Shown here piece after piece: positions 14,072-49,592 of a DNA stretch of 64,000 nucleotides (position 1 is its first letter; each line of letters opens with the position of its first letter). Below the pieces are notes generated by a model. That model was not told where the DNA came from. It saw only the letters and a program-made list of their open reading frames with translations, and did no database searches. The stretch lies in the IMG/VR virus record IMGVR_UViG_3300009983_000002; one strand, written 5' to 3'. Position numbers and translations under genes: made by a program. Source of the DNA: a virus (taxonomy: Duplodnaviria > Heunggongvirae > Uroviricota > Caudoviricetes).

Positions 14072-14282
14072 CCGGGTCTCCTATCGTGTCCCAGAACCGA
14101 AAGATGTCGGCCTGGGTGTAGTTGGGCACAAAGTAGTCGGCGAGTTCGGGGTCCATCCCACAGTCCTCGCACCACGCGGGACCATAGATCATTCCCGCGC
14201 CCACGTCAACTGATTCCTGCCAGATGATGCCGCCGCAGCACCGGCAGGGCTCTAAGTCCTGGCGGCCCCGGATGTATGTCAC
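14034..14282 (-). CDS. Cys-rich small protein (putative Zn-binding)
   Basis: 82 aa; CRCCGG...CEDCGMD cysteine pairs. Confidence 0.4.
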   Translation of the reverse strand: MTYIRGRQDLEPCRCCGGIIWQESVDVGAGMIYGPAWCEDCGMDPELADYFVPNYTQADIFRFWDTIGDPDAVDHPEEILPF

Positions 14283-14737
14283 TTCTTGGCCTTCTCCGCC
14301 GCCCGGTCGTGCATGGTGATGCCGTCCAGGTGGTCAACCTCGTGGGCGATGCAGCGGGCGAGCAAGCCCGTGGCCCGCAGCTTCTGGCGGTTCCAGGCGC
14401 GGTCTGTGTAGGCCACGGTGAGGCTCACGGGCCTGCTGACGGGCACCTGATCCATTGGGTAGGAAAGGCAGCCCTCGGCCATCGTGGCGCGAATGGCGGC
14501 CTTGAATTCGATGATGGGGTTGATCATGAAGTGGAGGTCGCGGCCAACGGCGACGACGCACATGCGCTTCGCGATCCCCACCTGCGGCGCCGCGATCCCG
14601 ATTGCCATGCGAGCCTTCATGGTCTCATACATGGCCGTGAGTTGGGTCAGGGCTTCCTTGTCGCCGATTTCGACGGCAGGGGCGGGCGTGTGGAGGATGG
14701 GGTCGTTGTGGGGAACGAGCTTCAGTGAGAGTGCCAT
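14279..14737 (-). CDS. def: peptide deformylase
   Basis: Start at Met68 of track ORF (ATG 14737, SD CTGGAG). Three PDF motifs: GIAAPQVG, EGCLS, HEVDHLDG. Upstream 67 codons of the track ORF are low-complexity. Confidence 0.8.
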   Translation of the reverse strand: MALSLKLVPHNDPILHTPAPAVEIGDKEALTQLTAMYETMKARMAIGIAAPQVGIAKRMCVVAVGRDLHFMINPIIEFKAAIRATMAEGCLSYPMDQVPVSRPVSLTVAYTDRAWNRQKLRATGLLARCIAHEVDHLDGITMHDRAAEKAKK

Positions 14738-14748
14738 GTTGGCTCCAG

Positions 14749-14786
14749 AAAAGGGACGGGCCCGGGGAAGGAGATAACCCGGGCCC
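14749..14786 (-). terminator. candidate rho-independent terminator after rIIB-like gene
   Basis: Perfect 9-bp palindromic stem GGGCCCGGG/CCCGGGCCC (14758-14766 / 14778-14786) with 11-nt loop. On the minus-strand transcript it is followed by CCCUUUUCU. Confidence 0.45.
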
Positions 14787-14852
14787 GTCGTCGCGTCGGC
14801 GGAGGAAGGAGATGACTCCGCTTCGCTAGCGGGGATTATCAGGCCCCCGATT

Positions 14853-16418
14853 TCAGCCCCGGATTTCCTTGATCCAGCCCCGCAGGGTGGATTCAGAGAT
14901 GCCGGAGATACGTTGGCCGCCGCGATAGCCGTGTTCATCCACGATCTTCGTCACTTCGTCAGCGGTGAATTGGCGACCGTCCTTGGTCTTGAAGACCAGA
15001 GCGGTCTCGACGGTGTCAACGGCGTCCTCTTGGGAGTCGCGGCGCAGCCAGAATTCGAGGATCGCACGCGGCTCTTCCGCGAGTTCGACCCCAGCTTCAA
15101 GCTGGTCGTGATGGGGCTCCCAGTATTCGTCGCCCTGGACAGTCGAGACCCACTCGAAGGCGTAGAGCAGGCCGCGAGCGCGCTTGCGGAACGAGAGGCT
15201 GGTGTCCAGCGCACGCTCCAGGTCGGCACGCTTCAGGTCGCCCGGGACATCGCCGTAGAGTTCCAGGCGCTCTTCTTCCGTGAGTTCGGTGCGAGCGTCT
15301 TCGGCGTCGGCCTCCGGCGCCGCAGTGGCGGCAGCGGCTTCGGCGCGTTCGACTTGCGCGATCCAGAATTCGAGGACCGGCAGGGCGTCGTCGGGCTCAA
15401 CCTCGTTGTTGAGGCTGGTGTCGGCGTCGTCCCAGTAGCTCCAGCCCTGGATCGTGTCTTCCCAGTCGAATGCCGCTTGCAGCGCATCGAGACGGTCGCC
15501 GTTGTCGTTCGTGGAGTCCACGACGATGCGGGCTTGGTCGATGTCGAAGCCTTTCGGCACCGGGCCGTATTCCGCGAGCTTGCGGTCGATTTCTTCCTGG
15601 GTGTCGCCGTCGCCATCTTCGAGCGTGCGGCGGTAGTAGTCTTCGCTGGCCGTGGCGACGCCGCCGAAGTAGGACTTCGCTTCGTCTTCCGGCACTTCGC
15701 CAACGACTTCATACGTCCACGCCCGGCCCTTCGCGTTGTTGTAGTCGCTGGGGATCGAGACCACGTCGGCGGGGTTGATCTTCACGATCACCACGCGACC
15801 TTGGCCGCCGTGATAGTGGTCGAGATACGAGTAGGAGCAGAAGTGGAGGCCCCGCGAGCAGGTGGCGTTGCGGTTTGGGTCCACGTCTTCGCGGCGCATC
15901 GACGGCTTCTCGCCGATCTTGTTCGACACGACTTCGCCGCCGTAGCCACGGTGGAACGAAGTGTAGTCGTCCGCGACCTTCTTGAAGGCCAGGATGTCGC
16001 CGTCGTCGGTGAGCACGAATTGGCCGCTTTCGAGGAAGAGGTCGATTTCCTGGCGGGCCTTCACAGACGGGTTCTGTTCGCGCTTCGCCAGATAGTTGGC
16101 GAGGGCGTCGATGCTGTAGCCGCCCTTGAGCAACGTCAGCACTTGCGTGACGTAGACGCCTTCGATGGCGATGCCGTCGAAGCGGACTTCGCTGTCGCCG
16201 ACCTGGACGCGGCCAAAGCTGGCGCGCGTGATGAAGCCCGGGAGGTCCGCGAGATCGCGGATCAGATCGAGGTTGTAATCCTTGGCCTTCGCGCCGCGCT
16301 GGAGTTCGGCCTTCAGGGCGTCGAAGTTCGGATGGCTGTTGTCGATGGCGCGGGGGCGACCGTCGAGAAGCAAGTTAATGCTTCGGGGGGTGATGGTTAC
16401 TGCGAGGGTAAGTGACAT
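14853..16418 (-). CDS. large hypothetical protein, possible rIIB-like
   Basis: Start at Met93 of track ORF (ATG 16418, SD GAAGGAG 5 nt upstream; upstream codons are S/T/R junk). 521 aa, acidic. Lies immediately downstream of the GHKL-ATPase (rIIA-like) gene, as in T4 rIIA-rIIB. No motif confirmation. Confidence 0.3.
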   Translation of the reverse strand: MSLTLAVTITPRSINLLLDGRPRAIDNSHPNFDALKAELQRGAKAKDYNLDLIRDLADLPGFITRASFGRVQVGDSEVRFDGIAIEGVYVTQVLTLLKGGYSIDALANYLAKREQNPSVKARQEIDLFLESGQFVLTDDGDILAFKKVADDYTSFHRGYGGEVVSNKIGEKPSMRREDVDPNRNATCSRGLHFCSYSYLDHYHGGQGRVVIVKINPADVVSIPSDYNNAKGRAWTYEVVGEVPEDEAKSYFGGVATASEDYYRRTLEDGDGDTQEEIDRKLAEYGPVPKGFDIDQARIVVDSTNDNGDRLDALQAAFDWEDTIQGWSYWDDADTSLNNEVEPDDALPVLEFWIAQVERAEAAAATAAPEADAEDARTELTEEERLELYGDVPGDLKRADLERALDTSLSFRKRARGLLYAFEWVSTVQGDEYWEPHHDQLEAGVELAEEPRAILEFWLRRDSQEDAVDTVETALVFKTKDGRQFTADEVTKIVDEHGYRGGQRISGISESTLRGWIKEIRG

Positions 16419-16461
16419 AGGGTCTCCTTCTCTGTCGTGTTTCAAAGTTGGCGCGATTAGA

Positions 16462-18645
16462 TCACGCCTTCTTCGCGTTGTCAACAAGCAAAATGTAGTC
16501 CAACAATTTTTGCATCGTCTCTTCGTCGGCGTGGTAGCGCCACGAGTTGCCGACGATGACCTGGAGCAGCGGGTAGGCTTCGACGACGGCCTTGGCCTCT
16601 TCCACGGGGCCCGGGTGGGCCGCCGGGAGTTCGATGCTGCCCCGCAGGACTTCGAGAACGCGGAAGCGTTCAAGGATGTCCTTGGTGTCTTCATCTTCCG
16701 CGAGTTCCCGATAGAAGCGCACTTCGTTAAGAAGCTTCTTCAGCGGCGAGTCGTCGCCGAGGATCACCGACTTGTCGAGCCCGCTTTCGATCAGGTTCAC
16801 CGCGAACTTCCAGCCGAGTTCGTCAGTGACGTTCTCTTCGTAGTTCTTGAAGGCCGCGACGAAGTCGAGATCGACCGTGAGATCGGTGGCGGCGGCCACG
16901 ATGTCCCAGAAGCTTTCCCAGCCTTCGTGCTTGTTCGGGATGTTCTTGTAGGTCGCGGGAATGCCCAAGAGTTCGAAGTCGGCGTCGAGCTTCTTGAACT
17001 TCTTCAGGGCCTCGATCAGCGAGTTGATGTAGGAGATCGAGACTTCCTGGCCCGCGTTCATCGGGCAGTTCTTCGACAGGTGGACGTAGACGCCGCCGTC
17101 TTCGGGCTGCACGTCGGCCTCTTCGAACTTGTAGCCTTCGAGCACCTTGACCTTCGGAGCGGCCTTGCGGTCGAGCACCGACTGCGGAATCGGAAGGTCT
17201 TCGAGCTTCACGAATTCCGACGCCGGAGGACGCCCGAGTTCGACCAGGAGCTTAGCGAAGCTGCGCTTGCCGAATTGTTCGGTGGTCTGAATCCAAACCA
17301 AGTCAGCACGTTCGCTGTAGCTGAATTGTTCGAAGTATGCGGCGATGCGCGCCGCAATGTGCTTCACCGGAGTGTTCATGTCCTGGATCAGGAAGACCGT
17401 CTTCTGGCCGACTTCCAGGTCAATGTGGTTGCGGTGTTCGAACTTGATCTTCGGGCGCTTGTTGCACACGTCATAGCTGCTGACGAACGCCAGCGAGCAG
17501 CCCAAGCGCGACTTGATGCGCGTGCGGGTGTCGAGTTTCTTCGAGCGCCACACTGCATTCTTGCGGGCGTATTCGCGGAACGAAGTCGGCAGGTTGTAGG
17601 TGTTGAGCACTTCGTTCAAGCGCTTGCGGGCCGTCCAGCGCGTCTTCGCCGTCGAGATCGACTGTTCGATCTTCGCCAGGATTTCGGCCTCGACGAGCTT
17701 CAGATAGCGCGCGATGCTCTTCTTCGTGAGGTCGGTATATTCCAGGTGTTCACGCGAAGGCGTGATGCTGAAGTCGCCGATTTCGCCTTCGATGAAAAGC
17801 GGAGCGCCAAGGAGTTCGCGTTGGTGCTGCGAGAACGAGCCGTCGAGCGCGTGAGTGTCGATGGGATAGATCACGCAGCCTTGCTTCACGGCAGCGCGTT
17901 GCACGAGTTGGTTGGGCTTCACGAGCTTCCAGTTCGTGCCCTCAATCGACGATTCCAGCGGTTCGCCTTCGACCTTCGAGCCCGAGAGAACGGGGAAAAC
18001 ATCGAAGCCCGGCAGCGTCATGCGAGCGGCGCGCTTGAAGTGCTCGACATCCTCGACCTTAACCGAGAACGAGACTTCAAGGCCTTGCTCTTCGTCCGTG
18101 ACCTCATTCGAGAACAGGACGATCTTCGGCTTGCCTTCTTCATTGATGAAGCAGTTGTAGATGCGCTTGCGGCCTTCGAAGCGCACGATGACGTTGAAGC
18201 TGTCGGTGTAGGCGAACGGGGTCTTCGAGCCCAGGCCGAACTTACCGACTTGCTTGTCAGCGGCGTCGAGAATCTTGGCCTTCTGGGCCTGCGTCGCGCC
18301 CTTGGGGACAGCGCCGTCTTTCGTGGATTCGAAGACGCGGGTGTAATTACGCATCACGAATTCGTGGGTCATGGAGACGCCGAAGTCGCGGACGCTGAAG
18401 TAGGGCTCCCATTGCGTCGGCAGGTGGCATTCGAACGGACGCTCCGGGGTGCCGCGCATGGCGTGGGCGTCGAAAGCGTTCGACCACAGTTCTCGGATGA
18501 TCGCTCGCGGCTTGTCCGAATAGATGCCGTCGATCAGAAGGCGGAAGGCCTTCGCGGTCGCGGCAATCGTGAATTCGCCTTCTTCTTCCACGCCATCGAC
18601 GAAAACGTCGCGACCGGAATCGAGGGTATTGGCTTCGGCTCTCAA
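16462..18645 (-). CDS. rIIA-like protein (N-terminal GHKL/HATPase_c-type ATPase domain)
   Basis: 727 aa; RAIIRELWSNAFDAH resembles the Bergerat-fold N-box (ELxxNAxDA) found at the rIIA N-terminus. TTG start with SD AAGGAG 6 nt upstream. Confidence 0.5.
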   Translation of the reverse strand: MRAEANTLDSGRDVFVDGVEEEGEFTIAATAKAFRLLIDGIYSDKPRAIIRELWSNAFDAHAMRGTPERPFECHLPTQWEPYFSVRDFGVSMTHEFVMRNYTRVFESTKDGAVPKGATQAQKAKILDAADKQVGKFGLGSKTPFAYTDSFNVIVRFEGRKRIYNCFINEEGKPKIVLFSNEVTDEEQGLEVSFSVKVEDVEHFKRAARMTLPGFDVFPVLSGSKVEGEPLESSIEGTNWKLVKPNQLVQRAAVKQGCVIYPIDTHALDGSFSQHQRELLGAPLFIEGEIGDFSITPSREHLEYTDLTKKSIARYLKLVEAEILAKIEQSISTAKTRWTARKRLNEVLNTYNLPTSFREYARKNAVWRSKKLDTRTRIKSRLGCSLAFVSSYDVCNKRPKIKFEHRNHIDLEVGQKTVFLIQDMNTPVKHIAARIAAYFEQFSYSERADLVWIQTTEQFGKRSFAKLLVELGRPPASEFVKLEDLPIPQSVLDRKAAPKVKVLEGYKFEEADVQPEDGGVYVHLSKNCPMNAGQEVSISYINSLIEALKKFKKLDADFELLGIPATYKNIPNKHEGWESFWDIVAAATDLTVDLDFVAAFKNYEENVTDELGWKFAVNLIESGLDKSVILGDDSPLKKLLNEVRFYRELAEDEDTKDILERFRVLEVLRGSIELPAAHPGPVEEAKAVVEAYPLLQVIVGNSWRYHADEETMQKLLDYILLVDNAKKA

Positions 18646-20698: not shown

Positions 20699-21118
20699 AT
20701 GACTACGCCCACCGCCTTCCAGATGATGATCGCTGAACGCATTCTCAGCGAGCCCTTTCCGCGTCCCGGGCAGGATATGTCCAACTCGGAGAAGTGGGCT
20801 TTCGTTCACGCCGTCCTCGACGACAGTGACGACGAAGATTTGGACCCGGAGACCCCGTGGACCCCAACGCTCAACATCTTCGAAGGGCTCGACTGGCAGG
20901 CGGTCTACGACGAGTGGACGGACGAAGACCTCTTCGCCGCCGTCCTCTTCGCCGACCTCCTGAACGATGTCTACTTCGCGATCTTCACGCAAGGCGATGG
21001 AAGCGAGGCCGATCACCTGAACTATCAGACGAGCTTCGTCTGGTGGAAGAAGCTGAAGGACAAGCACGACTCTGATCAGGGCCACGGCCCGTTCAATCAC
21101 AAGGGATGGCTACATTGA
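20699..21118 (+). CDS. hypothetical acidic protein
   Basis: 139 aa, excellent GC3 bias, Asp/Glu-rich. Confidence 0.5.
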   Translation: MTTPTAFQMMIAERILSEPFPRPGQDMSNSEKWAFVHAVLDDSDDEDLDPETPWTPTLNIFEGLDWQAVYDEWTDEDLFAAVLFADLLNDVYFAIFTQGDGSEADHLNYQTSFVWWKKLKDKHDSDQGHGPFNHKGWLH

Positions 21119-21744
21119 AAACGAAGAGAGCGAAAATCCTCGACGACACGCAGTTTCGCGAAATCCTGGGCCGCTTGGGCGAAGCCCAGCATCCAGAACG
21201 CGACCGCGTTATCTTCATCCTCTCCTTCAAGGCCGGGCTGCGCTCGCAAGAAATTGCGGGGCTCGACTGGGAAGACGTGACGGACGCCAAGGGCAACATC
21301 GGGGCCCCGGCCCCTGGCTACGACTCCCGTGGCCGCCAAGTCAACGTGCCGTCGCTCTTCATCCCCGGCGACATCGCGAAGAAAGGCCGTGAGCGCTCCG
21401 TGGCGCTTCACCCAGACCTGATCAAGGCCCTGCGGGCCCTCCAGGCCGTCAGCGAAAAGACGGGCCCCAAGGACCCTGTAATCACGGGAGAGGCGGGGCA
21501 GCGCCTGACCCCTAACTACCTCGCCCAGTTCTTCCTCCGGCGCTTCCGCAAGTTCGGGATGCAGGGCGCTTCCTCTCACTCTGGCCGCCGCACGTTCATC
21601 ACCAAGGCCGCCCAGATGTCGCGTGAAAGCGAAGGCGTCAGCCTCCGCGACGTGCAGCAATGGGCGGGGCACGCCTTCCTCTCGACGACAGAGGCCTACA
21701 TCGAGCCCAGCCCCAGCGCTCACGCCCTGATCTCGCGGCTATAA
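21106..21744 (+). CDS. tyrosine recombinase, catalytic domain only (short integrase-like)
   Basis: 212 aa; R in ILSFKAGLRSQE, HSGRRTFIT (H-x-x-R), GHAFLSTTEAYIE (His...Tyr nucleophile). This is the R..H-R-H..Y pentad order of phage integrase/XerD. No N-terminal core-binding domain. Confidence 0.65.
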   Translation: MATLKTKRAKILDDTQFREILGRLGEAQHPERDRVIFILSFKAGLRSQEIAGLDWEDVTDAKGNIGAPAPGYDSRGRQVNVPSLFIPGDIAKKGRERSVALHPDLIKALRALQAVSEKTGPKDPVITGEAGQRLTPNYLAQFFLRRFRKFGMQGASSHSGRRTFITKAAQMSRESEGVSLRDVQQWAGHAFLSTTEAYIEPSPSAHALISRL

Positions 21745-21809: not shown

Positions 21810-22247
21810 ATGAAAACTGCGATCTTCGACATCGACGGCACGATTGCCGACCTCACGCATCGTCGCCAATACATCGCGACGAAGCCCAAGAATTACGCGG
21901 CCTTCCACAAGGGCGTGACCAACGATCTCCCGATCTGGCCGGTCATCAACGTCCTGTTGGCGATGAAGGCCGCTGGTTACAAGATCGTCCTCTGCTCTGG
22001 CCGCGATGGCGACTTCCGGCAGCGCACGGTCGATTGGCTGGCGCGTTTCGGCGTCCCCTATGACGCCCTCTACATGCGGGCCGGTAAGGACTACCGCGCC
22101 GACGACATCATCAAAGAGGAATTGCTTGACCAAATCCTCGCCGATGGCTACAAGCCCGAAATCGTCTTCGACGACCGGGACCGCGTCGTCGCCATGTGGC
22201 GCCGCCGGGGGCTGAAATGTGCTCAAGTCGAACCAGGAGATTTTTGA
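21810..22247 (+). CDS. HAD-superfamily phosphatase (polynucleotide 3'-phosphatase-like)
   Basis: Start at ATG inside track ORF 21660..22247 (SD AAGGGGGAGG). N-terminal FDIDGTIAD is the HAD motif I (DxDGT). 145 aa. Confidence 0.6.
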   Translation: MKTAIFDIDGTIADLTHRRQYIATKPKNYAAFHKGVTNDLPIWPVINVLLAMKAAGYKIVLCSGRDGDFRQRTVDWLARFGVPYDALYMRAGKDYRADDIIKEELLDQILADGYKPEIVFDDRDRVVAMWRRRGLKCAQVEPGDF

Positions 22248-22483
22248 TGCGGAGAAACTTCTACTTCAACTTCTCCAGGTTCGGCCAAGCCGTCGCCGCT
22301 GGCGCCGGGGCCGTGTTCCTCTACGCGCTCGCCAACTGGCTCTATCTCGCATCGCCGACGTGCAGCGACCCCAATGAGGGCAACTTCCTCATGGCCTTGG
22401 CCTGGGGTGTCGGCGGCGCTCATGCCTGGGCCGCCTACTCGACGCTGGTGCTCGTAGGCCGCTCCTTCTCGCGGGAGCACTGA
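22247..22483 (+). CDS. small membrane protein
   Basis: 78 aa; ATG with SD AGGAG, overlaps previous stop. Two hydrophobic helices. Confidence 0.4.
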   Translation: MRRNFYFNFSRFGQAVAAGAGAVFLYALANWLYLASPTCSDPNEGNFLMALAWGVGGAHAWAAYSTLVLVGRSFSREH

Positions 22484-22569
22484 TGAAGCGTGAAGCCGCT
22501 CTCGTCCTCGCTTTCATTTTCTGCCTTTACGGGCTGCCGATTCTCGTCTATGGGCTGGGCCTGAAATGA
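22483..22569 (+). CDS. tiny hydrophobic peptide (28 aa)
   Basis: MKREAALVLAFIFCLYGLPILVYGLGLK. Translationally coupled at both ends (TGATG upstream, ATGA downstream). Confidence 0.3.
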   Translation: MKREAALVLAFIFCLYGLPILVYGLGLK

Positions 22570-23804
22570 CGCTCCACTATCCATTCCCGCAAATCACCCA
22601 TATCGACCAAGTCCGCAAGGCGATCTTCAATCGCCCGGAATACATCGTGGTCGAGAAGGAAGGCGGCTACACCGTCGTCAATTACGTCTACAGCGGCGAA
22701 GACACGTTCCCGCCTGTGATCGACCGCGAGGTCTCGCAGACCGACTATCTGACTGGGCTCCGCGACGCCACGGACGCCGCGATCTTGCGCGAGTGCCGGG
22801 GCTTGATCTTCTGCTCCGAGACCGGCGTCGTGATCTCGCGGCGCTTCCACAAATTTTTCAATGCCGGTGAGCGTGCTGACGTGGTCCCCGAGGCTATGAT
22901 CGGAGCCGAATACGACGTGCTGGAAAAGCTCGACGGCTCGATGATCACACCAATCCCTCTCAAGGGCGGCTTCTGGCGCTGGGGCACGAAGATGGGCGTC
23001 ACCGACGTTGCCCTGCCCGTCGAAGAATTCGTGCTCGACAACAGCCAGTATGTCGAACTCGCCGACTATTGCAAACAAACAGACTGGACGCCGATCTTCG
23101 AGTGGTGCTCGCCGCTCAACCGCATCGTGCTTCAACACACGACGCACAATTTGATCCTAACCGCCATCCGCCACAACGTCACTGGCGAATATATGTCCTA
23201 TGCGCGCATGTCGGCGCTCGCTGGACGGTTCGACATCCCGGTTGTGCGCCGCGTGAACGCTGACATCTTGGCGAACTATCGCGAAAGCGAAGGGGTCGAA
23301 GGCTACGTCTTGCGTTTCGCCAACGGCCACATGATGAAATTCAAGACCGAGTGGTATGTTCGTCTGCACAAGACGAAGGACAAGATCGCTCGCGAAGTCG
23401 ATGTCGCTCAACTCGTGTTCGACGATCAGGCGGACGACTTGCTGCCGCTGCTCGACGAAGACGACAAGGCGCGTTTGATCGAATATCGTGCTGCCTTCTG
23501 GCGGCGCTTCGAAGACGTGAAGAACGGCATCAGCCTCATGCTCGACCAGTGGCGTGGCGAAGGCGACCGCCGCAACTTCGCGATCCACACGGACCCTTGC
23601 GCCTCACAACCGCGTCGCGATCTCACCTATCCGTCGCCGTGGGCTCGCACCATCATGTTCACGGCATGGGACGGCAAAGTTCCTGTTGACACCGCAGTGA
23701 GGATTGCGGTATCGAAGGGGCTTGTGAACAACCGCAAGTTCGCGGAACTCAAAGAAGGCCTGTTGCAGGGCCTGCGCTGGAAGGAAGCCTGGGAAGTTGA
23801 GTAA
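22566..23804 (+). CDS. ATP-dependent polynucleotide ligase, RNA ligase 1-like
   Basis: 412 aa; nucleotidyltransferase motif I VLEKLDGSM (KxDG). Flanked by phosphatase and kinase genes as in RNA-repair cassettes. Confidence 0.5.
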   Translation: MTLHYPFPQITHIDQVRKAIFNRPEYIVVEKEGGYTVVNYVYSGEDTFPPVIDREVSQTDYLTGLRDATDAAILRECRGLIFCSETGVVISRRFHKFFNAGERADVVPEAMIGAEYDVLEKLDGSMITPIPLKGGFWRWGTKMGVTDVALPVEEFVLDNSQYVELADYCKQTDWTPIFEWCSPLNRIVLQHTTHNLILTAIRHNVTGEYMSYARMSALAGRFDIPVVRRVNADILANYRESEGVEGYVLRFANGHMMKFKTEWYVRLHKTKDKIAREVDVAQLVFDDQADDLLPLLDEDDKARLIEYRAAFWRRFEDVKNGISLMLDQWRGEGDRRNFAIHTDPCASQPRRDLTYPSPWARTIMFTAWDGKVPVDTAVRIAVSKGLVNNRKFAELKEGLLQGLRWKEAWEVE

Positions 23805-24300
23805 GCCGATTCTTCTTGTCCTCGTGGGCTTGCCGTATTCCGGCAAGTCAACCTACCGCGCCAAGGCCTTGAAGAGCCTCGTGCTCGCGGGACCGACTAT
23901 CGTCCTCTCCAGCGACGACAAGATCGACGAAGTCGCTGCGGCGCTGGGCAAGCGCTACGACGAAGTATGGTCGGAGGCCAAGGACGCCGCCGACGCCTAC
24001 GTCAAAGAGAATTTCCGCAACGCCGTAGAGGCCGGGCTCAACATCATCTGGGATCAGACGAACCTCGGGCTCAAGAAGCGCCGCTCGATCTTGGCGCAGG
24101 CTCCGGGCTACACGAAGATGGCCGTCTACTTCGATCTCGACGAAGAGACGGAAGACGCCCGCCGTGCGGCGCGTCCCGAACGCTTCATCCCCAAATCAGT
24201 CACCGCTCAAATGCGTGCTTCCTACGTTGTGCCGACGCTGGAAGAAGGGTTCGACTACGTCGGACCCAGCACCGACACGGCTTTCCCGGAGACCGCATGA
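23797..24300 (+). CDS. P-loop polynucleotide kinase (Pnk kinase-domain-like)
   Basis: 167 aa; Walker A VGLPYSGKST at N-terminus. Size and position fit a 5'-OH polynucleotide kinase domain. Confidence 0.5.
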   Translation: MSKPILLVLVGLPYSGKSTYRAKALKSLVLAGPTIVLSSDDKIDEVAAALGKRYDEVWSEAKDAADAYVKENFRNAVEAGLNIIWDQTNLGLKKRRSILAQAPGYTKMAVYFDLDEETEDARRAARPERFIPKSVTAQMRASYVVPTLEEGFDYVGPSTDTAFPETA

Positions 24301-29297: not shown

Positions 29298-29322
29298 ACA
29301 ACTTTCTCCCGGCGAGCGTGGT

Positions 29323-38787: not shown

Positions 38788-38797
38788 GGAGAAGGAA

Positions 38798-39835
38798 GTG
38801 GACGAAGATTTGACACGCGGCGACTTCACGGCGTTCCCCAGCATCCGGGGCTTTGCGAACATCTGCAAAGAAATCGCGATTGTCTACCCGTTCCCCAACC
38901 GCCCAACGATCCCCTTCAACTCGAAGGTGAAGCTCCACGGCACGAACGCCGGGGTCCGCATTTACGCCGATGGTCGCGTGGTGGCCCAGAAGCGCACCGA
39001 CGACGTGACGCCTGAAGACGACAACGCGGGGTTCGCGGCCTGGGTCGCGACCATGCGTGACTACTTCGGCTCCCTCGCCATCGCGCTGCCGCCGAACACC
39101 TACGTCGTGATCCACGGCGAATGGGCGGGCCCTGGGGTCCAGAAGAAGGCCGCAGTCGCGAGCATCCCCGAGAAATCTTTCTTCGTGTTCTCCATCGAGA
39201 CCAGCGAAGGCCACATTGTCGAGCCCGACGAAATCCTGGCATTCATGAGCGACGACGGCAAGCTCCCGGCGCGTGTCTACGTCCTGCCGTGGTTCTCGCG
39301 TCTCTCCGTCACCATCGACTTCAACGACCGCGAAGGCACGGAAGCCGTCGCCGCGACCATGAACGAAGTCGTCGGCGAAATCGACAAGGTCGATCCCTAC
39401 ATCCAAGAAGTGTTCGGGGTCGAAGGCGTTGGCGAAGGCCTCGTTTTCTATCCTCGCGGGCCCGGCTACGAAAAGCTTCGCGGTGATCGCGGCTTGTCTC
39501 TGCTCTTCAAGGTCAAGGGCGCGAGCCACGGCGAGAAGGGTGCGGGCAAAGCCGCACGCACGTCGGCGATCCCCAGCAACACCGCAACGGAATTCGCGAA
39601 GACCCACGTCCACGAAGATCGCCTTGAACAAGGCCTGAAGGCCGTGTGCGGCAACGATCTCCCGACGATGAAGCATATCGGCCCGTTCCTGGGCTGGATT
39701 GGCCGCGACGTTGAGAAAGAAACAGTGGACGAGCGTGAAGCGTCTGGGCTTGATTGGCGCTCGCACTGTGCGGGGCCCGTGGCCTTGATTGCACGCGAAT
39801 GGCTGTTCAAGAAGATCAACGCGGTGACGTTGTGA
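38798..39835 (+). CDS. RNA ligase 2-like nucleotidyltransferase
   Basis: GTG start with SD AAGGAGAAGG. Motif I SKVKLHGTNAG (K-x-H-G-x-N as in T4 Rnl2). 345 aa. Confidence 0.5.
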   Translation: MDEDLTRGDFTAFPSIRGFANICKEIAIVYPFPNRPTIPFNSKVKLHGTNAGVRIYADGRVVAQKRTDDVTPEDDNAGFAAWVATMRDYFGSLAIALPPNTYVVIHGEWAGPGVQKKAAVASIPEKSFFVFSIETSEGHIVEPDEILAFMSDDGKLPARVYVLPWFSRLSVTIDFNDREGTEAVAATMNEVVGEIDKVDPYIQEVFGVEGVGEGLVFYPRGPGYEKLRGDRGLSLLFKVKGASHGEKGAGKAARTSAIPSNTATEFAKTHVHEDRLEQGLKAVCGNDLPTMKHIGPFLGWIGRDVEKETVDEREASGLDWRSHCAGPVALIAREWLFKKINAVTL

Positions 39836-40005
39836 TCGCCGACGATCTCGTCTTCAGGATGGAAGAGCGGGCGCGCATCCGGCGCCAAATCACGACGCGG
39901 AAGTCCGTTCAAGAAGGGAAGCCCGATAGGATCGCCGATCTCCTAGAAGAAGGCGCACGGGCAATTCGTGAGCTTCAGGGCAAAGAGCCTGCGTCGTCTG
40001 GGTGA
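39832..40005 (+). CDS. hypothetical small protein (GTG start)
   Basis: 58 aa; GTGA coupling. Last gene of plus block, converges on ligase gene. Confidence 0.3.
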   Translation: MIADDLVFRMEERARIRRQITTRKSVQEGKPDRIADLLEEGARAIRELQGKEPASSG

Positions 40006-40919
40006 CGCCACCCGAGCCACACGGGAATCCGTGGCTTCTCCTTAGAGCCTTCGCGCTGGAACTTATACTTCGCGAGCTTGCCCATGACCACGGCCTCGTT
40101 ACCGGCCATGATCTCATTCCAAATCGCGATACGTTCGTCTTCACTCCAGCCGTTGCCGAGCTTGAAGTGCTCTGCGGGCCAGCCGTGTAGGCGCACGACG
40201 ACGCCGCCCAGCATCCCCGCCTTCGTCTTCCCCGCTTTGTGCGTGCTGCGCTTCGCGTAGCCGCGTTCGTCGCGGGTCTGTTCGTTCTCGTTGTGCTCGC
40301 GTTCGTAGTAGCCGATGACTTCGCCTTCAGCGTCTTCGAAGGGCTTGAGCTTGATCAGAATCTGCTCTTTCTCCGTGCTGCGTCCAAACTTGTAGAGCGC
40401 TGCGGGGTCGCGGAGCATCAGGCCTTCGTAGCCGTCAGCGATATAAGCGTGCATCATTGCCTCCGCCTCTTCCCATGTGTAGACTGGGAAGTGCTGCACG
40501 AGTTGCACATGCGGGCCGATAGCCGCACACTTGTCGGCGGCGATGCTCAGGCGGTCGAGGTAGCTCAGGGTCGGGCGGTCGAAGTCATCGACGTAGTCGA
40601 AGACGTGGAAGACAACGCCATCGGCAACGGCATCGTGCGTGGAGAATGCGGACATCGTTGTCTGCATCGCATCTGCGGCGTTGCAGGGACCGGCGACGAT
40701 CTCGCCGTCGAGCCCTGAGAGTCGGGGGTCGGAGAAGAGGGCTGATAGGGCTGCGTTGGGTATGGGCTTCAGGGTCCGGGACAGGGCTTGGCCGTCCCTG
40801 ACGATCATGCGGATGCCGTCGAACTTCGGGCTCGCCCAGAAGGGAAAGCGTAGCGGGTGTTTCTCCCGGTCTGGGTGTTCGGCAAGGAGGGGCTTGAACC
40901 CCAGGACGCGCTTAGCCAC
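39975..40919 (-). CDS. ATP-dependent DNA ligase
   Basis: GTG start (SD GGAG 6 nt upstream); 315 aa. Motif I SPKFDGIRM (KxDGxR), motif IV GYEGLMLRD, motif V LIKLK. Confidence 0.8.
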   Translation of the reverse strand: MAKRVLGFKPLLAEHPDREKHPLRFPFWASPKFDGIRMIVRDGQALSRTLKPIPNAALSALFSDPRLSGLDGEIVAGPCNAADAMQTTMSAFSTHDAVADGVVFHVFDYVDDFDRPTLSYLDRLSIAADKCAAIGPHVQLVQHFPVYTWEEAEAMMHAYIADGYEGLMLRDPAALYKFGRSTEKEQILIKLKPFEDAEGEVIGYYEREHNENEQTRDERGYAKRSTHKAGKTKAGMLGGVVVRLHGWPAEHFKLGNGWSEDERIAIWNEIMAGNEAVVMGKLAKYKFQREGSKEKPRIPVWLGWRHPDDAGSLP

Positions 40920-44660: not shown

Positions 44661-44665
44661 GCATT

Positions 44666-47192: not shown

Positions 47193-47565
47193 CGGCGAGG
47201 CTCTTCGTGATCTGATCGGCAATGTGTCGCGCCAAGTCGGCATCGTAGATGTCGTAGGTCTTGTAGTCGAGTTCGTCACGCCCGCGATTGGTGACGAAGC
47301 CTCCGCCGATGACTTCGCTGACTTCGTAGTGCCGAAAGCTGCGGAGTTCGGTGACGCGCCACGCGGAACCCCCGTGTATTTCGACGATGCTCTCATAGCG
47401 CTTGAACCGGCCCTTGGCGCGCTCGCGGCGCTTGTCCATGCGTGCGCGCTCGCGGTTGGCCTTGGGGTCGCCGCCCGGCGGGCCCAAGATGTCGAAGCTC
47501 TTGGCGACGCCGAACACGTCGTCAAAGTCTCCGTGGCGCCAGTTGATGCGATCCCTCACGGCCAA
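47182..47565 (-). CDS. hypothetical protein
   Basis: 127 aa. Confidence 0.4.
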   Translation of the reverse strand: MAVRDRINWRHGDFDDVFGVAKSFDILGPPGGDPKANRERARMDKRRERAKGRFKRYESIVEIHGGSAWRVTELRSFRHYEVSEVIGGGFVTNRGRDELDYKTYDIYDADLARHIADQITKSLADAR

Positions 47566-48101
47566 ACCTCATACCAGAATTTGACAAGCCCGTCCTTCTT
47601 CTCGTCGAAGATCGCGATGATGTCAACCGCACAGTTCTGGCGTTCGATCTTCTTCGAGAGCTTGCGGATGGTTTTGCCCGTCCATATCGCGGTGTCGATG
47701 ACGAGGACGGTGCCGTTGATCCTGTCGAAGTTCTCGGCAGTCGGAGGGATGTAGGGGACGTGTAGAAAGTGCGACGCATATACTGCGGCTACTGCACCGC
47801 TACGTCCAGGACCCGTCACTGCCGCGTATTGTCCGTGTAGGAGCTTCAGCCTATCGGCTAGGGCAGTGCGGAATTCCGTCTCTTCGACGACACGCCACTT
47901 GCGGTTCGGGGTCTCGACGACGCTGGGGATGCCTGGATTTGCACGCATGATCCCTTCCCACGCGCCTGGGGGAAGGATATTTGGGTTCGCATCAGCGCGT
48001 TTCGAACCCTTGCGCCGCTCCGTGCCGCCGCAAGTGCATTCGTGGTCGTATTGATCGACATGCCATTCGCAGTCGATGGTATGATCGGACACATACGTCA
48101 T
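47556..48101 (-). CDS. phosphoribosyltransferase-domain protein
   Basis: 181 aa; GTVLVIDTAIWTGKTIRKL matches the type I PRT PRPP-binding motif (hydrophobic-D-D/T-x-x-x-TG-x-T). N-terminal CxxxH...CTCGG cluster. Confidence 0.5.
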   Translation of the reverse strand: MTYVSDHTIDCEWHVDQYDHECTCGGTERRKGSKRADANPNILPPGAWEGIMRANPGIPSVVETPNRKWRVVEETEFRTALADRLKLLHGQYAAVTGPGRSGAVAAVYASHFLHVPYIPPTAENFDRINGTVLVIDTAIWTGKTIRKLSKKIERQNCAVDIIAIFDEKKDGLVKFWYEVWP

Positions 48102-48643
48102 GAGGTTACGATAGGAGGCTCCCCTCCCTGCTGATACAGCGGCTGTCCGTCTTCAGGAGCGACGGGGAACGGCCATAGCGTGCGGCCATAGGCCTTGGCT
48201 ATCAAGTCGTGCGCCTCTGCTAGCGCGCGATAGCGGCAGCCCACCATGTGATAGTGGGGCTCCGGGCTCTTCGTCGAGCAAGTGCATGAGCCGACGCTGG
48301 CGAGCGTGATCTGCATGAGAACCGCATCGACCTTCTCGATCTCTTCGGCCTTGATTCGCGCTTGAATGGCTTCCAGCCACTCGATGTCTTCGTCGGGATG
48401 ATTACACAGGCGATATTCCTGCGCGACCGCGCCCTGTTCGTGGAGATGGGCGACGATCTCGCCGCGTTGGATGTCGCGCGTCGTGGCGACGGGGATGAAG
48501 ATCACGCGGGCGATCATGATCACCGTGGCGATGACGCCGCAGACGACGGCGATCATCGGCGCGTAGTAGATGCTGTCCTCCAGCACCCGGCCACACGCCA
48601 AAGCCATCTGCATTGTATCGCCGAGTCCCATCAGTATCCCCAA
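48098..48643 (-). CDS. membrane protein with Cys cluster
   Basis: 181 aa; two N-terminal TM helices. CTCSTK...HYHMVGC. Confidence 0.4.
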   Translation of the reverse strand: MGILMGLGDTMQMALACGRVLEDSIYYAPMIAVVCGVIATVIMIARVIFIPVATTRDIQRGEIVAHLHEQGAVAQEYRLCNHPDEDIEWLEAIQARIKAEEIEKVDAVLMQITLASVGSCTCSTKSPEPHYHMVGCRYRALAEAHDLIAKAYGRTLWPFPVAPEDGQPLYQQGGEPPIVTS

Positions 48644-49164
48644 AGCATAAGCGGATTGTCGTTGCGGATGCTTTCAAGATGCGGAGGAAGCACGCGCTTA
48701 TCAAAGCCGTGCGTGATCAAGTGCTCTCCGTTCTTGGTCGCATAGTGATAGCTTGCCGTTCCCGCTGGAAGCAAGCGCATGATCTCCGGCGCTTCGCCGT
48801 TATCGCAATCGAAGAGCCAGAGCTTCGCGCCAGCGGCGCGGCTCGTGGGCTGCATCAATGCGGATTCCCAGCGGCGTTCAAGGCGCTCCCAGAAGAGAGG
48901 GTCGCCGCCGTGATCGGCTTCGACAATCGCCATCTTGAAGTGCTTCGCGGCGGCGTTGAGGTCGCGGGCTTCGGCGCTCCCATAGATGCGTTCGTTCGGT
49001 GCCGCCATGTCGCGGAGTTCGCGGAGCGCACGATCATGTGCTGCGATGTCGTGCGTGATCTTCGTGATCGTCCTTTGCTTTTCGATGCCGTCCTTGTAGC
49101 GCCCCTTCAAGAAAAGGACTCGGGTCCCTTCTTGGAAGGCCGGAGAGTGATTGAGTAAGTTCAC
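48631..49164 (-). CDS. hypothetical protein (GTG start)
   Basis: 177 aa; GTGA coupling with SD GAAGG. Confidence 0.35.
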   Translation of the reverse strand: MNLLNHSPAFQEGTRVLFLKGRYKDGIEKQRTITKITHDIAAHDRALRELRDMAAPNERIYGSAEARDLNAAAKHFKMAIVEADHGGDPLFWERLERRWESALMQPTSRAAGAKLWLFDCDNGEAPEIMRLLPAGTASYHYATKNGEHLITHGFDKRVLPPHLESIRNDNPLMLWGY

Positions 49165-49592
49165 AGAAGCACCTTCAATTCCGAGAGCCACGGCGGCGCA
49201 TCTTCGCGACGGATGGGGCCAATCCCCAGGCACGTCACAGTGGGTTCGGGAAACACGGTGCGGCCCGCATCCTTCACCAGAGAGTGAGGGAGCCCGGCTT
49301 TCTCGCACAGAATCTTCATGGCTTCAAGGTGGTCGGCATTGGGAGCCATGACCGCGATCTTCACGGCGACGCCGCTGTATTTGTATTCCATCGCCGCAGC
49401 GGGATGGCTTTCTTCTGCGGCCCAGAACGTGTGAAGGAATGCGTGGCCCGCCTGGGCCAGCATCTTCCCGCGATTGCCGCCGCAGGCCTTGATGGCTTCC
49501 ATGCTGACAACGGCGTAGAGCCGCAGTTCACTCGCCACAGAAGTAGCTCCGACCTTGCGGTGCTTCTCGATGTTCAGCGTTACACTCGGCAT
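49161..49592 (-). CDS. peptidyl-tRNA hydrolase, PTH2 family-like
   Basis: GGNRGKMLAQAGHAFL parallels the PTH2 GKIAAQCSHA motif. Start at ATG 49592 (SD GGAGAAGG) or alternatively Met at about 49502, which gives the archaeal-size 113-aa form. Confidence 0.5.
   Translation of the reverse strand: MPSVTLNIEKHRKVGATSVASELRLYAVVSMEAIKACGGNRGKMLAQAGHAFLHTFWAAEESHPAAAMEYKYSGVAVKIAVMAPNADHLEAMKILCEKAGLPHSLVKDAGRTVFPEPTVTCLGIGPIRREDAPPWLSELKVLL

What the first reader, a model, noticed from the sequence alone, without database searches (positions are those of the whole stretch)
14279..49592. Phage-encoded translation quality-control enzymes: peptide deformylase and a PTH2-like peptidyl-tRNA hydrolase
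A complete PDF (three canonical motifs) sits between the rII-like genes and DNA-metabolism genes.

A PTH2-family-like hydrolase (GKMLAQAGHA) sits in the accessory block next to a PRTase-domain protein and a Cys-rich membrane protein. PTH2-type enzymes are archaeal/eukaryotic-type and not the bacterial Pth. A phage copy could rescue ribosomes stalled by host abortive-infection systems that release or cleave peptidyl-tRNA, or could recycle tRNA during massive late translation.
Basis: partly seen in the sequence, partly recalled or inferred. Interest (0 to 1): 0.55.

Follow-up and report, generated by a model that had tools for sequence, protein, structure and literature searches.

The report
Phage peptide deformylase and PTH2 hydrolase
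This uncultured phage really does carry a peptide deformylase and an archaeal-type (PTH2) peptidyl-tRNA hydrolase, but both are accessory genes already described in other phages, so this is a new example of a known thing.

Summary
Both genes are real and the family assignments hold. The PDF is 14279..14737(-), 152 aa. It scores 134 bits on Pfam PF01327, passes the NCBIfam equivalog cut-off, has all three motifs, and has the short C-terminus typical of phage PDFs. The PTH2 gene is 49161..49538(-), 125 aa; its start is GTG 49538, not ATG 49592. It scores 71 bits on PF01981. Its AlphaFold model (pLDDT 96.7) superposes on archaeal and human Pth2 at TM 0.83-0.90. K25, D90 and T94 align to K18, D86 and T90 of S. 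solfataricus Pth2. It falls below the archaeal-Pth2 equivalog cut-offs, so it belongs to a divergent, essentially phage-restricted clade.

Neither gene is new in kind. Phage PDFs have solved structures and measured activity. Phage PTH2 is annotated in phiCbK-like, Brevundimonas and many jumbo phages, and Iyer et al. 2021 already proposed the ribosome-rescue idea. Kikimora and Gurke carry both genes.

The two genes lie 35 kb apart in separate blocks, so they are not a module. My added result: in IMG/VR, 40 of 79 PTH2 loci have a tRNA gene within 1 kb, against 3 of 80 PDF loci. This phage shows no tRNA gene, but it has a T4-type Rnl1/PNK tRNA-repair set and an SspB-alpha-like gene. No phage PTH2 activity has been tested.

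The parts
14279..14737 (-). Peptide deformylase gene, 152 aa. It is the short phage type, ending 16 residues after the HEVDH motif.
   Evidence: Pfam PF01327 134 bits. NCBIfam TIGR00079 109.7 bits against a 103.95 cut-off. PDB phmmer hits: S. elongatus PDF 4dr8 at 7e-23, cyanophage S-SSM7 PDF 3uwa at 3.5e-22, Vp16 phage PDF 5mtc at 9e-17. The exact product is called on ENA contig k141_33558. The RBS and ATG were read.
14755..14789 (-). GC-rich hairpin with a 12-bp stem, followed by CCCUUUUCU. It lies between the rIIB stop and the PDF ribosome-binding site and looks like a terminator or attenuator.
   Evidence: Fold energy -30.2 kcal/mol, z = -3.06, with 0 of 200 shuffles as stable. Sequence read. 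The consensus terminator scan did not list it because its loop is 11 nt.
14853..16418 (-). rIIB gene, immediately upstream of the PDF.
   Evidence: PF26926 Phage_T4_rIIB on the identical contig. PHROG 11221 at 2.9e-64.
16462..18645 (-). rIIA gene.
   Evidence: PHROG 612, RIIA lysis inhibitor, 1.3e-101.
49161..49538 (-). PTH2-family peptidyl-tRNA hydrolase gene, 125 aa, GTG start. The proposed catalytic positions are K25, D90 and T94.
   Evidence: PF01981 71.2 bits. AlphaFold2 pLDDT 96.7 and pTM 0.90. Foldseek PDB hits 2zv3, 1wn2, 1xty and 1q7s at TM 0.83-0.90 normalised to the target. K25/D90/T94 align to K18/D86/T90 of 1xty and are invariant in 60 homologues. The 125-aa gene call appears on two contigs.
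49528..49722 (-). 64-aa ORF of unknown function. Its stop codon overlaps the PTH2 start by 11 nt.
   Evidence: Called on contigs L001 and L002. Sequence read. No Pfam or PHROG match. No homologue next to PTH2 in 79 viral loci.
48631..49164 (-). 177-aa ORF of unknown function. Its GTG start overlaps the PTH2 stop codon (GTGA).
   Evidence: Gene call. Sequence read. No significant Pfam match (best DUF3209, E=0.051, 14.5 bits against a 25 cut-off) and no PHROG match.
48098..48631 (-). 177-aa protein with one hydrophobic, probably membrane-spanning segment and 6 Cys.
   Evidence: Translation. Gene call. No family match.
47556..48101 (-). Small protein with a PRTase fold. The core is 47556..47948, 130 aa.
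   Evidence: AlphaFold2 pLDDT 95.3. Foldseek best hits are type I phosphoribosyltransferases (1vch, 4jls, 1vdm) at E about 1e-5 and TM 0.6-0.68. Pfam PF00156 only E=0.014. Family of 325 proteins with invariant TGPGRSGA and IDTA..TG.T.
50029..51405 (-). SPFH/Band 7 protein at the head of the same minus-strand block.
   Evidence: PF01145 62.6 bits. No minus-strand terminator-like site between it and PTH2.
22566..23804 (+). T4 Rnl1-type RNA ligase. This is tRNA-repair context elsewhere in the same genome, not physically linked to PTH2.
   Evidence: PF09511 on the identical contig. TIGR02308 at 1.9e-36, below the equivalog cut-off.
23797..24300 (+). P-loop kinase (AAA_33) with a weak PNKP-kinase-like match, overlapping the end of Rnl1.
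   Evidence: PF13671. Weak match to bacterial Pnkp, TIGR04075 6e-7.
21810..22247 (+). HAD phosphatase of the PNKP type.
   Evidence: PF25109 HAD_PNKP on the identical contig.
38771..39835 (+). Second RNA ligase (PF09414 family).
   Evidence: PF09414. PHROG 548, RNA ligase, 1e-37.
29323..29760 (+). SspB-alpha-like ClpXP adaptor homologue, another gene touching the aftermath of stalled translation.
   Evidence: PF04386 49.8 bits against a 27 cut-off. PDB hit to Caulobacter SspB 2qas at 2.4e-12.

Best explanation
The window comes from an uncultured tailed phage. Its large terminase is closest to Microcystis phage Mwe-JY26 and to Roseobacter/Ruegeria, Rhodobacter and Sphingobium phages, and Cbk-like phages are also related. 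The host is probably an alphaproteobacterium. The phage carries two independent accessory genes that act on the translation apparatus.

(1) A short, phage-type peptide deformylase. It uses the Cys90/His132/His136 metal site and Glu133 to remove the N-formyl group from nascent proteins made during infection. Like other phage PDFs, it lacks the C-terminal ribosome-binding helix.

(2) A divergent Pth2-type hydrolase. It sits in a tightly packed block of small accessory genes and is translationally coupled to both neighbours. It most likely cleaves the ester bond of N-blocked aminoacyl-tRNA, meaning peptidyl-tRNA that has dropped off ribosomes and possibly N-acetyl-aminoacyl-tRNA. That would return free tRNA to the pool when the host's single Pth1 is limiting, or when translation is being damaged.

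Shown here: the genes, the folds, the conserved active-site positions, and the family-wide linkage of phage PTH2 genes to tRNA gene arrays. Inferred: the enzymatic activity, its substrates, and the benefit to the phage. The two genes are not a functional module.
For: PDF:
- Pfam and NCBIfam cut-offs are met.
- The motifs and metal ligands are present in the sequence and invariant in 25 homologues.
- Among the closest solved structures are the active phage PDFs 3uwa and 5mtc. Their activity without the C-terminal helix is documented (PMC5591237; PMC3660681).

PTH2:
- The Pfam cut-off is met.
- The model has pLDDT 96.7, four strands plus helices, and TM 0.83-0.90 to six solved Pth2 proteins.
- K25/D90/T94 align to K18/D86/T90 of S. 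solfataricus Pth2.
- G24, K25, Q29, G31, H32, K60, D90, T94, T102 and G107 are invariant across 60 homologues at 34-74% identity.

Link to tRNA:
- Of 79 IMG/VR PTH2 loci, 57 have tRNA genes within 10 kb, 40 within 1 kb, and 32 are flanked by tRNA genes on both sides. The tRNA genes are nearly all on the PTH2 strand.
- The control set of 80 PDF loci has a tRNA gene within 1 kb in 3. Fisher p = 3e-12, or 1e-9 after dereplication.

Same genome: Rnl1, a PNKP-type phosphatase, a P-loop kinase with a weak PNKP match, and a second RNA ligase.

From my own knowledge, not checked here: archaeal Pth2 complements E. coli pth(ts) and hydrolyses diacetyl-Lys-tRNA (Rosas-Sandoval 2002; Fromant 2003).
Against: - No phage PTH2 has been assayed in any paper I could find.
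- The protein scores below both NCBIfam archaeal-Pth2 equivalog cut-offs (63.8 against 126; 56.6 against 82). Equivalence of function is therefore not guaranteed, and RefSeq names its phage relatives only 'hydrolase'.
- This phage has no tRNA gene in the 64-kb window or in the further 8 kb examined. The array context that supports a tRNA role in relatives is absent here.
- PTH2 has no conserved protein neighbour, so there is no operon-level clue to its function.
- The roles of K18/D86/T90 in the S. solfataricus enzyme are from my memory of Fromant et al. 2005. I could not read that paper here.
Confidence: 0.75

Rival explanations
1. PTH2 is specifically a counter-defence enzyme. It works with the phage's Rnl1/PNKP tRNA-repair genes, and perhaps the SspB-like adaptor, to clear the products of tRNA-targeting abortive infection. 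Those products would be peptidyl-tRNA released from ribosomes stalled after anticodon-nuclease attack, or N-acetyl-aminoacyl-tRNA made by GNAT toxins such as TacT/AtaT. This is a more specific version of the best explanation, not an alternative enzymology.
For: The genome carries a T4-type Rnl1, a PNKP-type phosphatase, a P-loop kinase with a weak PNKP match, and a second RNA ligase. Relatives sit beside RNA-repair and NAD-salvage genes: Ro60/TROVE, a CCA-adding enzyme and NAMPT/NMNAT in L009; an RNA ligase and NUDIX in L011; NUDIX and NAPRT in phiCbK. Bacterial Pth reverses TacT acetylation of aminoacyl-tRNA (PMC9241777). Iyer et al. proposed ribosome rescue after tRNA cleavage.
Against: Rnl1/PNKP lie 26 kb from PTH2 on the other strand. 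Within 10 kb of 79 viral PTH2 genes, phmmer with this window's proteins found a PNK-like kinase in 3 loci, an RNA ligase in 1 and Rnl1 in none. No paper links phage Pth to anti-defence. The tRNA-array association fits a general tRNA-supply role equally well.
Confidence: 0.25
2. The PTH2-fold protein has a different substrate in bacteria. One example is fMet-tRNAfMet, which would tune or shut down host initiation. Another is a different ester on tRNA or a nucleotide. Under this reading 'peptidyl-tRNA recycling' is the wrong description.
For: The score is below the equivalog cut-offs, which marks a divergent clade. The clade has its own sequence features, namely a two-residue insertion with a short extra helix after strand 1 and the NRGK / PTVTCLGIGP signatures. 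From memory, not verified here: S. solfataricus Pth2, unlike bacterial Pth1, accepts E. coli fMet-tRNAfMet (Fromant 2003).
Against: All residues invariant across archaeal, human and phage sequences are kept. The strong linkage to arrays of elongator tRNA genes points to ordinary tRNA recycling. Archaeal Pth2 is tolerated in E. coli and complements it (own knowledge).
Confidence: 0.07
3. One or both ORFs are decayed or non-functional passengers.
For: Both are accessory genes with patchy distribution among related phages. The terminase relatives listed other than Kikimora and Gurke do not appear among the PTH2 hits.
Against: Both ORFs are intact with good ribosome-binding sites. All catalytic and invariant positions are kept. 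Both are conserved in sister contigs at 75-87% protein identity with the same gene order. The PTH2 model is very confident.
Confidence: 0.03

Closest known systems
Phage PTH2 genes: phiCbK gp165 and relatives (Caulobacter), Brevundimonas phages Kikimora and Gurke, CcrBL9, Atu_ph07, RaK2, Myrna. Described across jumbo phages by Iyer et al. 2021 (PMC7824862).
   Same: Same Pfam family and same clade. Identity is 42-49% by tblastn, and Foldseek TM to the CcrBL9 protein is 0.88. The signature GNRGK..AQAGHA / PTVTCLGIGP is shared. The proposed role is the same. Kikimora and Gurke also carry a PDF, and in Kikimora PTH2 lies 1.7 kb downstream of rIIA/rIIB.
   Different: This phage is new at the nucleotide level: megablast of the PTH2 region (47000-52000) found no match in 50,697 phage records. 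It is probably not a jumbo phage; the contig is 85 kb and the terminase relatives are 100-150 kb. Its PTH2 neighbours are orphan genes. It has no nearby tRNA genes, unlike half of the viral relatives.
Archaeal and eukaryotic Pth2: M. jannaschii 2zv3, P. horikoshii 1wn2, S. solfataricus 1xty, human PTRH2/Bit1 1q7s.
   Same: Same fold at TM 0.83-0.90. Identity is 24-30%. The GK..AQ..HA, K60, DAG.T and T..GIGP positions are conserved.
   Different: It scores below the equivalog cut-offs. It has an extra short helix and a two-residue insertion after strand 1. It is encoded by a phage of a bacterium that should already have Pth1. Dimerisation, which the literature reports for Pth2 (PMC11994314), was not tested.
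Phage peptide deformylases: cyanophage S-SSM7 PDF (3uwa; PMC3660681) and Vibrio phage Vp16 PDF (5mtc; PMC5591237).
   Same: Short PDFs of 137-154 aa lacking the C-terminal ribosome-binding region, with the three motifs intact. Matches are 3.5e-22 and 9e-17. A total of 163 phage records carry a relative.
   Different: Identity to these is only 37-39%. The nearest non-lineage relatives are short PDFs of Firmicutes MAGs at 45%. Placement directly after rIIB is particular to this lineage: none of 80 viral PDF loci has rII within 10 kb.
PTH2 genes inside tRNA arrays of cluster C mycobacteriophages (Morgado & Vicente 2018, PMC5966550).
   Same: They show the same association that I find across IMG/VR: a PTH2 gene embedded among same-strand tRNA genes.
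   Different: The window's PTH2 is not in an array, and no tRNA gene was found in about 72 kb of its contig.

Membership tests
PTH2 (Pfam PF01981; Pth2-type peptidyl-tRNA hydrolase superfamily) | Sequence match to the family profile above the curated gathering score. | tested here: met
   71.2 bits against 23, E = 1.1e-19, covering profile positions 14-115 of 115.
PTH2 (Pfam PF01981; Pth2-type peptidyl-tRNA hydrolase superfamily) | Compact alpha/beta fold with a four-stranded sheet and four helices, as in 1q7s, 1xty and 2zv3. | tested here: met
   AlphaFold2 pLDDT 96.7. Strands at 5-12, 59-65, 85-90 and 100-110, plus helices. Foldseek hits 2zv3, 1wn2, 1xty, 1q7s, 3erj and 1rlk at probability 1.00 and TM 0.79-0.91; nothing else scores below E = 0.1. 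Fold description from PMC11202043.
PTH2 (Pfam PF01981; Pth2-type peptidyl-tRNA hydrolase superfamily) | Conserved active-site positions equivalent to Lys18, Asp86 and Thr90 of S. solfataricus Pth2. Their catalytic role is recalled from Fromant et al. 2005 and was not re-read here. | tested here: met
   K25, D90 and T94 align to K18, D86 and T90 of 1xty. They are invariant in 60 homologues.
PTH2 (Pfam PF01981; Pth2-type peptidyl-tRNA hydrolase superfamily) | Hydrolysis of N-blocked aminoacyl-tRNA, or complementation of pth(ts). | not testable with these tools
   This needs an enzyme assay or genetics. No published assay of a phage PTH2 was found.
Archaeal Pth2 equivalog (NCBIfam NF003314 / TIGR00283) | Score at or above the curated equivalog cut-off. 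| tested here: not met
   63.8 against 126 bits, and 56.6 against 82 bits. The protein is a divergent clade member and not an orthologue of the archaeal housekeeping enzyme by this criterion.
Peptide deformylase (PF01327 / TIGR00079) | Profile match above the curated cut-offs. | tested here: met
   PF01327: 134.1 against 22.8 bits. TIGR00079 equivalog: 109.7 against 103.95 bits.
Peptide deformylase (PF01327 / TIGR00079) | Three motifs: G-x-G-x-AAPQ, EGCLS and HExxH, which supply the Cys/His/His metal ligands and the catalytic Glu. | tested here: met
   A45-IGIAAPQVG54 (the first Gly of motif 1 is Ala), E88-GCLS92 and H132-EVDH136, read from the translation. G47, A49, P51-G54, E88-S92, H132, E133, D135 and H136 are invariant in 25 homologues.
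Phage-type short PDF (S-SSM7 / Vp16 class) | Absence of the long C-terminal ribosome-binding helix. | tested here: met
   The protein ends 16 residues after HEVDH. The alignment to 168-aa E. coli PDF 1bs4 stops at residue 144 of the chain and 144 of the 152-aa query. The alignment to 154-aa S-SSM7 PDF is nearly end to end. Class definition from PMC5591237.
Peptide deformylase (PF01327 / TIGR00079) | Deformylase activity. | not testable with these tools
   This needs an assay or def complementation.
Type I phosphoribosyltransferase (neighbour gene 47556..48101) | PRTase fold with a PRPP-binding loop. | tested here: inconclusive
   The fold is supported (Foldseek TM 0.6-0.68, probability 1.00). 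Pfam PF00156 scores only 15.2 bits against a 26.3 cut-off. The loop reads IDTA..TG.T, with one acidic residue instead of the usual two.

The most novel reading that the evidence does not exclude
The phage carries a distributed 'stalled-translation clean-up' toolkit, used together as a counter-defence against tRNA-targeting abortive infection. It would comprise PTH2, Rnl1 plus PNKP-type phosphatase and kinase genes, a second RNA ligase, an SspB-alpha-like ClpXP adaptor and a PDF. In this scheme PTH2 strips peptides, or toxin-added acetyl groups, from tRNAs. The ligase and PNKP-type enzymes then heal cleaved tRNAs. The SspB homologue steers ssrA-tagged fragments to ClpXP, or blocks that route. 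A phage-borne SspB-alpha would itself be almost unprecedented.
Probability: 0.15. Interest if true: 0.6.

Novelty: new member of a known kind. Interest (0 to 1): 0.27.

Why it matters
The finding adds one more uncultured phage lineage to the list of phages carrying a PDF and an archaeal-type Pth2, so on its own it changes little.

Its use is as a pointer. Phage PTH2 is widespread: there are 79 loci in IMG/VR alone. It is tightly linked to phage tRNA arrays, yet I found no experimental test of it. A pth(ts) complementation and a knockout in a tractable relative such as phiCbK gp165 in Caulobacter would address a question first raised by the phiCbK annotation. That question is whether phages need their own peptidyl-tRNA hydrolase for bulk translation or to survive tRNA-directed defences.

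This genome is a convenient comparison case, because its PTH2 occurs with a tRNA-repair set but without any tRNA array.

Tried and rejected
- I suspected from memory that the 64-aa ORF overlapping the PTH2 start resembled ribosome modulation factor (the RMF/CrpP fold). Pfam at E <= 10 and PHROGs gave nothing, so I dropped the idea.
- I looked for a conserved protein partner of PTH2. phmmer with 17 window proteins against all ORFs of 79 viral PTH2 loci found no recurrent neighbour. The 64-, 84- and 177-aa ORFs, the PRTase-like protein and SPFH had 0 hits.
- I looked for PDF-PTH2 and PDF-rII linkage in 80 viral PDF loci and found none.
- I looked for tRNA genes in the window and in three other stretches of the same contig and found none.
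- Megablast of the PTH2 region against phages gave no match.
- I tried to read the primary Pth2 papers (PMC2253226, PMC162332, PMC139208). They are not held, so statements on catalytic residues, pth(ts) complementation and fMet-tRNA hydrolysis rest on my own knowledge.
- PDB entry 24bt ('peptidyl-tRNA hydrolase', 127 aa, E = 1.6e-5) could not be identified further. It is not in the Foldseek copy.
- A search with the C-terminal tail of the SspB-like protein against PDB sequences, to compare ClpX-binding motifs, gave nothing useful.
- An exact-product look-up of the helicase 32972..34573 failed, probably because the start codon differs.

Full report
**What is in the sequence**

The window is about 60% G+C and has no tRNA gene. 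It matches an 84.9-kb ENA metagenome contig, ERZ27279440:k141_33558. That contig carries genes whose products are exactly those of the window.

The content is that of a tailed phage. It includes a large terminase, a tail protein, PolA, helicases, ThyX, a class II RNR, DNA ligase and rIIA/rIIB. The terminase is 54% identical to that of Microcystis phage Mwe-JY26. It is 43-46% identical to those of Roseobacter/Ruegeria, Rhodobacter, Sphingobium (Lacusarx) and Erythrobacter (Cbk-like) phages of 100-150 kb. Megablast of the PTH2 region (47000-52000) finds nothing among 50,697 phage records, so the phage appears new at that level.

**The peptide deformylase**

- **Gene.** The true start is the ATG at 14737, with GGAG 6 nt upstream. 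The resulting 152-aa product is exactly the one called on four public contigs.
- **Family.** It scores 134 bits on PF01327 and 109.7 bits on the NCBIfam equivalog TIGR00079, whose cut-off is 103.95.
- **Motifs.** The three motifs are present: IGIAAPQVG at 46-54, EGCLS at 88-92 and HEVDH at 132-136. They are invariant in 25 homologues.
- **Short type.** The protein ends 16 residues after HEVDH. Among its best solved relatives are the cyanophage S-SSM7 PDF (3uwa, 154 aa) and the Vibrio phage Vp16 PDF (5mtc, 137 aa). It therefore belongs to the short phage type. That type lacks the C-terminal ribosome-binding region and has been shown to be active (PMC5591237; PMC3660681).
- **Position.** A 12-bp GC hairpin followed by a U-rich run separates it from rIIB (-30.2 kcal/mol, z = -3.06).
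- **Spread in phages.** 163 phage records carry a relative. Phage PDFs are an established class.

**The PTH2 gene**

- **Gene.** The motif GKMLAQAGHA is there, and PF01981 is matched at 71 bits against a cut-off of 23. The start is better placed at GTG 49538 than at ATG 49592. GGAG lies 8 nt upstream, gene callers on two contigs use it, and all homologues begin at this point. The protein is then 125 aa, the normal size of a Pth2.
- **Coupling.** Its start overlaps the stop of a 64-aa ORF by 11 nt. Its stop overlaps the GTG start of a 177-aa ORF (GTGA). It is therefore embedded in a tightly coupled minus-strand block that begins at an SPFH/Band 7 gene. The scan lists no terminator-like site on the minus strand across 46.5-52.8 kb.
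- **Fold.** AlphaFold2 with 60 homologues gives pLDDT 96.7 and pTM 0.90. Foldseek against the PDB returns only Pth2 structures with significant scores. These are M. jannaschii 2zv3, P. horikoshii 1wn2, S. solfataricus 1xty, A. fulgidus 3erj, T. acidophilum 1rlk and human Bit1 1q7s, at TM 0.83-0.90 normalised to the target.
- **Active site.** In the HMMER alignment to 1xty, K25, D90 and T94 fall on K18, D86 and T90. I recall these as the residues identified by mutagenesis in Fromant et al. 2005, but I could not re-read that paper. These three residues and seven others are invariant in the 60-sequence alignment.
- **Conclusion.** The fold is there.

**Limits of the family assignment**

Against NCBIfam's two archaeal-Pth2 equivalog models, the protein scores 63.8 and 56.6 bits. 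The cut-offs are 126 and 82. It is therefore a member of the PTH2 superfamily but not, by curated criteria, an orthologue of the housekeeping archaeal enzyme.

The clade has features of its own. It has a two-residue insertion with a short helix after strand 1, and the signatures NRGK and PTVTCLGIGP.

A scan of one genome per 185,579 species finds full-length relatives of this clade in only a handful of assemblies. These are Hyphomonadaceae MAGs, Asticcacaulis, a Sphingomonadales MAG, Niveispirillum, a Synechococcus MAG, and a gammaproteobacterial MAG contig that is the same length as an IMG/VR viral contig with an identical match position. All other hits are archaeal Pth2 matched over the core only. 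Within bacteria the clade looks essentially phage-borne.

**What is already known**

- tblastn finds relatives at 42-49% identity in 45 phage records. These include the phiCbK-like Caulobacter phages (gp165, 'putative peptidyl-tRNA hydrolase') and the Brevundimonas jumbo phages Kikimora and Gurke.
- BFVD holds annotated PTH2-fold proteins from CcrBL9, Atu_ph07, RaK2, phiN3, Myrna, VH7D and several giant viruses.
- Iyer et al. 2021 describe PTH2 across jumbo phage groups. They note that it is the archaeo-eukaryotic type and propose that it frees peptidyl-tRNA during ribosome rescue after tRNA cleavage (PMC7824862).
- Kikimora and Gurke carry both PTH2 and PDF, so the combination also has precedent.
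- I found no paper reporting an assay of a phage PTH2.

**Context analysis**

The two genes are 35 kb apart in different blocks. I fetched 79 PTH2 loci and 80 PDF loci from IMG/VR with up to 10-kb flanks.

- **No protein partner.** No protein neighbour of the window's PTH2 recurs. PDF and PTH2 are never within 10 kb of each other, and PDF is never near rII.
- **tRNA linkage.** tRNA genes do recur. 57 of the 79 PTH2 loci have at least one (644 in 1.4 Mb). 40 have one within 1 kb of the PTH2 ORF. 32 have tRNA genes on both sides. The tRNA genes are almost all on the PTH2 strand.
- **Control.** In the PDF loci only 3 of 80 have a tRNA gene within 1 kb. Fisher's exact test gives 3e-12, or 1e-9 after collapsing PTH2 sequences at 90% identity (29 of 63).
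- **Precedent.** The association was reported for cluster C mycobacteriophages (PMC5966550). The scan shows it is general. It is independent evidence that the phage clade acts on tRNA.

The window's own gene is an exception. There is no tRNA gene in the window or in 8 kb beyond its left end. About 13 kb of the contig were not seen.

**Other translation-related genes in the same genome**

- A T4 Rnl1-type RNA ligase (22566..23804), with an overlapping P-loop kinase (23797..24300).
- A PNKP-type HAD phosphatase (21810..22247).
- A second RNA ligase of the PF09414 family (38771..39835).
- An SspB homologue (29323..29760). It matches PF04386 at 49.8 bits against a 27 cut-off. Its best solved relative is Caulobacter SspB-alpha, 2qas, at 2.4e-12. 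It has an SspB domain, a proline-rich linker and a short basic tail. It has no tblastn match in the phage collection and one relative in IMG/VR.

Relatives of PTH2 elsewhere sit beside Ro60, a CCA-adding enzyme, NAD-salvage genes and RNA ligases. This fits a role in coping with damaged translation, but the genes are dispersed and the link is an inference.

The 181-aa ORF 47556..48101 has only a sub-threshold Pfam PRTase match. Its 130-aa core belongs to a family of 325 small proteins. The core models confidently (pLDDT 95.3), and its best structural matches are type I phosphoribosyltransferases.

The 'Cys-rich membrane protein' has one hydrophobic segment and six cysteines. A 177-aa orphan gene lies between it and PTH2.

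**Verdict**

The most likely mechanism is ordinary Pth2 chemistry on N-blocked aminoacyl-tRNA, serving the phage's translation. I put the probability that the protein has this activity at about 0.75. Whether the benefit is bulk tRNA recycling or counter-defence is open.

This is a new member of a known kind. Interest is modest. The parts worth following are the lack of any experimental test of phage PTH2, its strong linkage to tRNA arrays, and the SspB-alpha-like gene noticed in passing.

Noticed in passing
window 29284..29760 (+), probable start at ATG 29323: SspB-alpha-like gene, a homologue of the ClpXP adaptor for ssrA-tagged proteins. Pfam PF04386 scores 49.8 bits against a 27 cut-off. 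The best PDB match is Caulobacter SspB 2qas at 2.4e-12. It has an SspB domain, a Pro-rich linker and the C-terminal tail VVSLDSFRKKT. There is no tblastn match in 50,697 phage records and one IMG/VR relative (L176, 62% identity). The only earlier report of a phage SspB that I found is Pseudomonas phage pf16 gp18 (PMC5587285).
   Followed up: partly
L015-L093 (79 IMG/VR loci); controls L096-L175: Phage PTH2 genes are strongly linked to tRNA gene arrays. A tRNA gene lies within 1 kb in 40 of 79 loci (29 of 63 after dereplication), against 3 of 80 PDF loci. PTH2 is flanked by tRNA genes on both sides in 32 loci, nearly all on the same strand. This was previously noted only for cluster C mycobacteriophages (PMC5966550).
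   Followed up: yes
window 21810..24300 (+) and 38771..39835 (+): A T4-type tRNA-repair set split into separate genes: a HAD PNKP-type phosphatase (21810..22247), an Rnl1-type ligase (22566..23804) and a P-loop kinase (23797..24300). There is also a second RNA ligase of the PF09414 family, lying next to a DNA ligase (39975..40919, minus strand).
   Followed up: partly
window 47556..48101 (-): A mini-PRTase-fold protein from a family of about 110-130-aa proteins, with invariant TGPGRSGA and IDTA..TG.T. The family is common on phage-like contigs and in some Hyphomicrobiales genomes. It mostly has no Pfam assignment, and its function is unknown.
   Followed up: partly
window 14755..14789 (-): A very stable 12-bp GC hairpin followed by a U-rich run, between the rIIB stop and the PDF ribosome-binding site (-30.2 kcal/mol, z = -3.06). 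It is a possible terminator or attenuator that would set PDF expression apart from rII.
   Followed up: partly
window 21106..21744 (+): A small (212 aa) tyrosine-recombinase-like gene (PF00589 Phage_integrase on the identical contig), in what otherwise looks like a lytic, rII-carrying phage.
   Followed up: no
window 25229..28606 (+) and 35505..36071 (+): A 1125-aa protein with a DUF5906 domain, whose function I did not resolve, and a DUF1643 protein. Neither was examined further.
   Followed up: no
L009 6334..8372 (JGI 3300032084, 335-kb contig): In a jumbo-phage-like contig, the PTH2 gene (56% identical to the window's) directly follows a Ro60/TROVE-vWA gene. NAMPT, NMNAT-NUDIX, NADAR and a CCA-adding enzyme lie within 8 kb. 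This looks like an RNA quality-control and NAD-salvage island.
   Followed up: no
PDB entry 3uwa / GenBank GU071098 (S-SSM7): The S-SSM7 cyanophage PDF is labelled 'RIIA-RIIB membrane-associated protein' in the PDB molecule name. In the GenBank record, a feature with that name lies under the PDF match. The label looks like an annotation carry-over.
   Followed up: no
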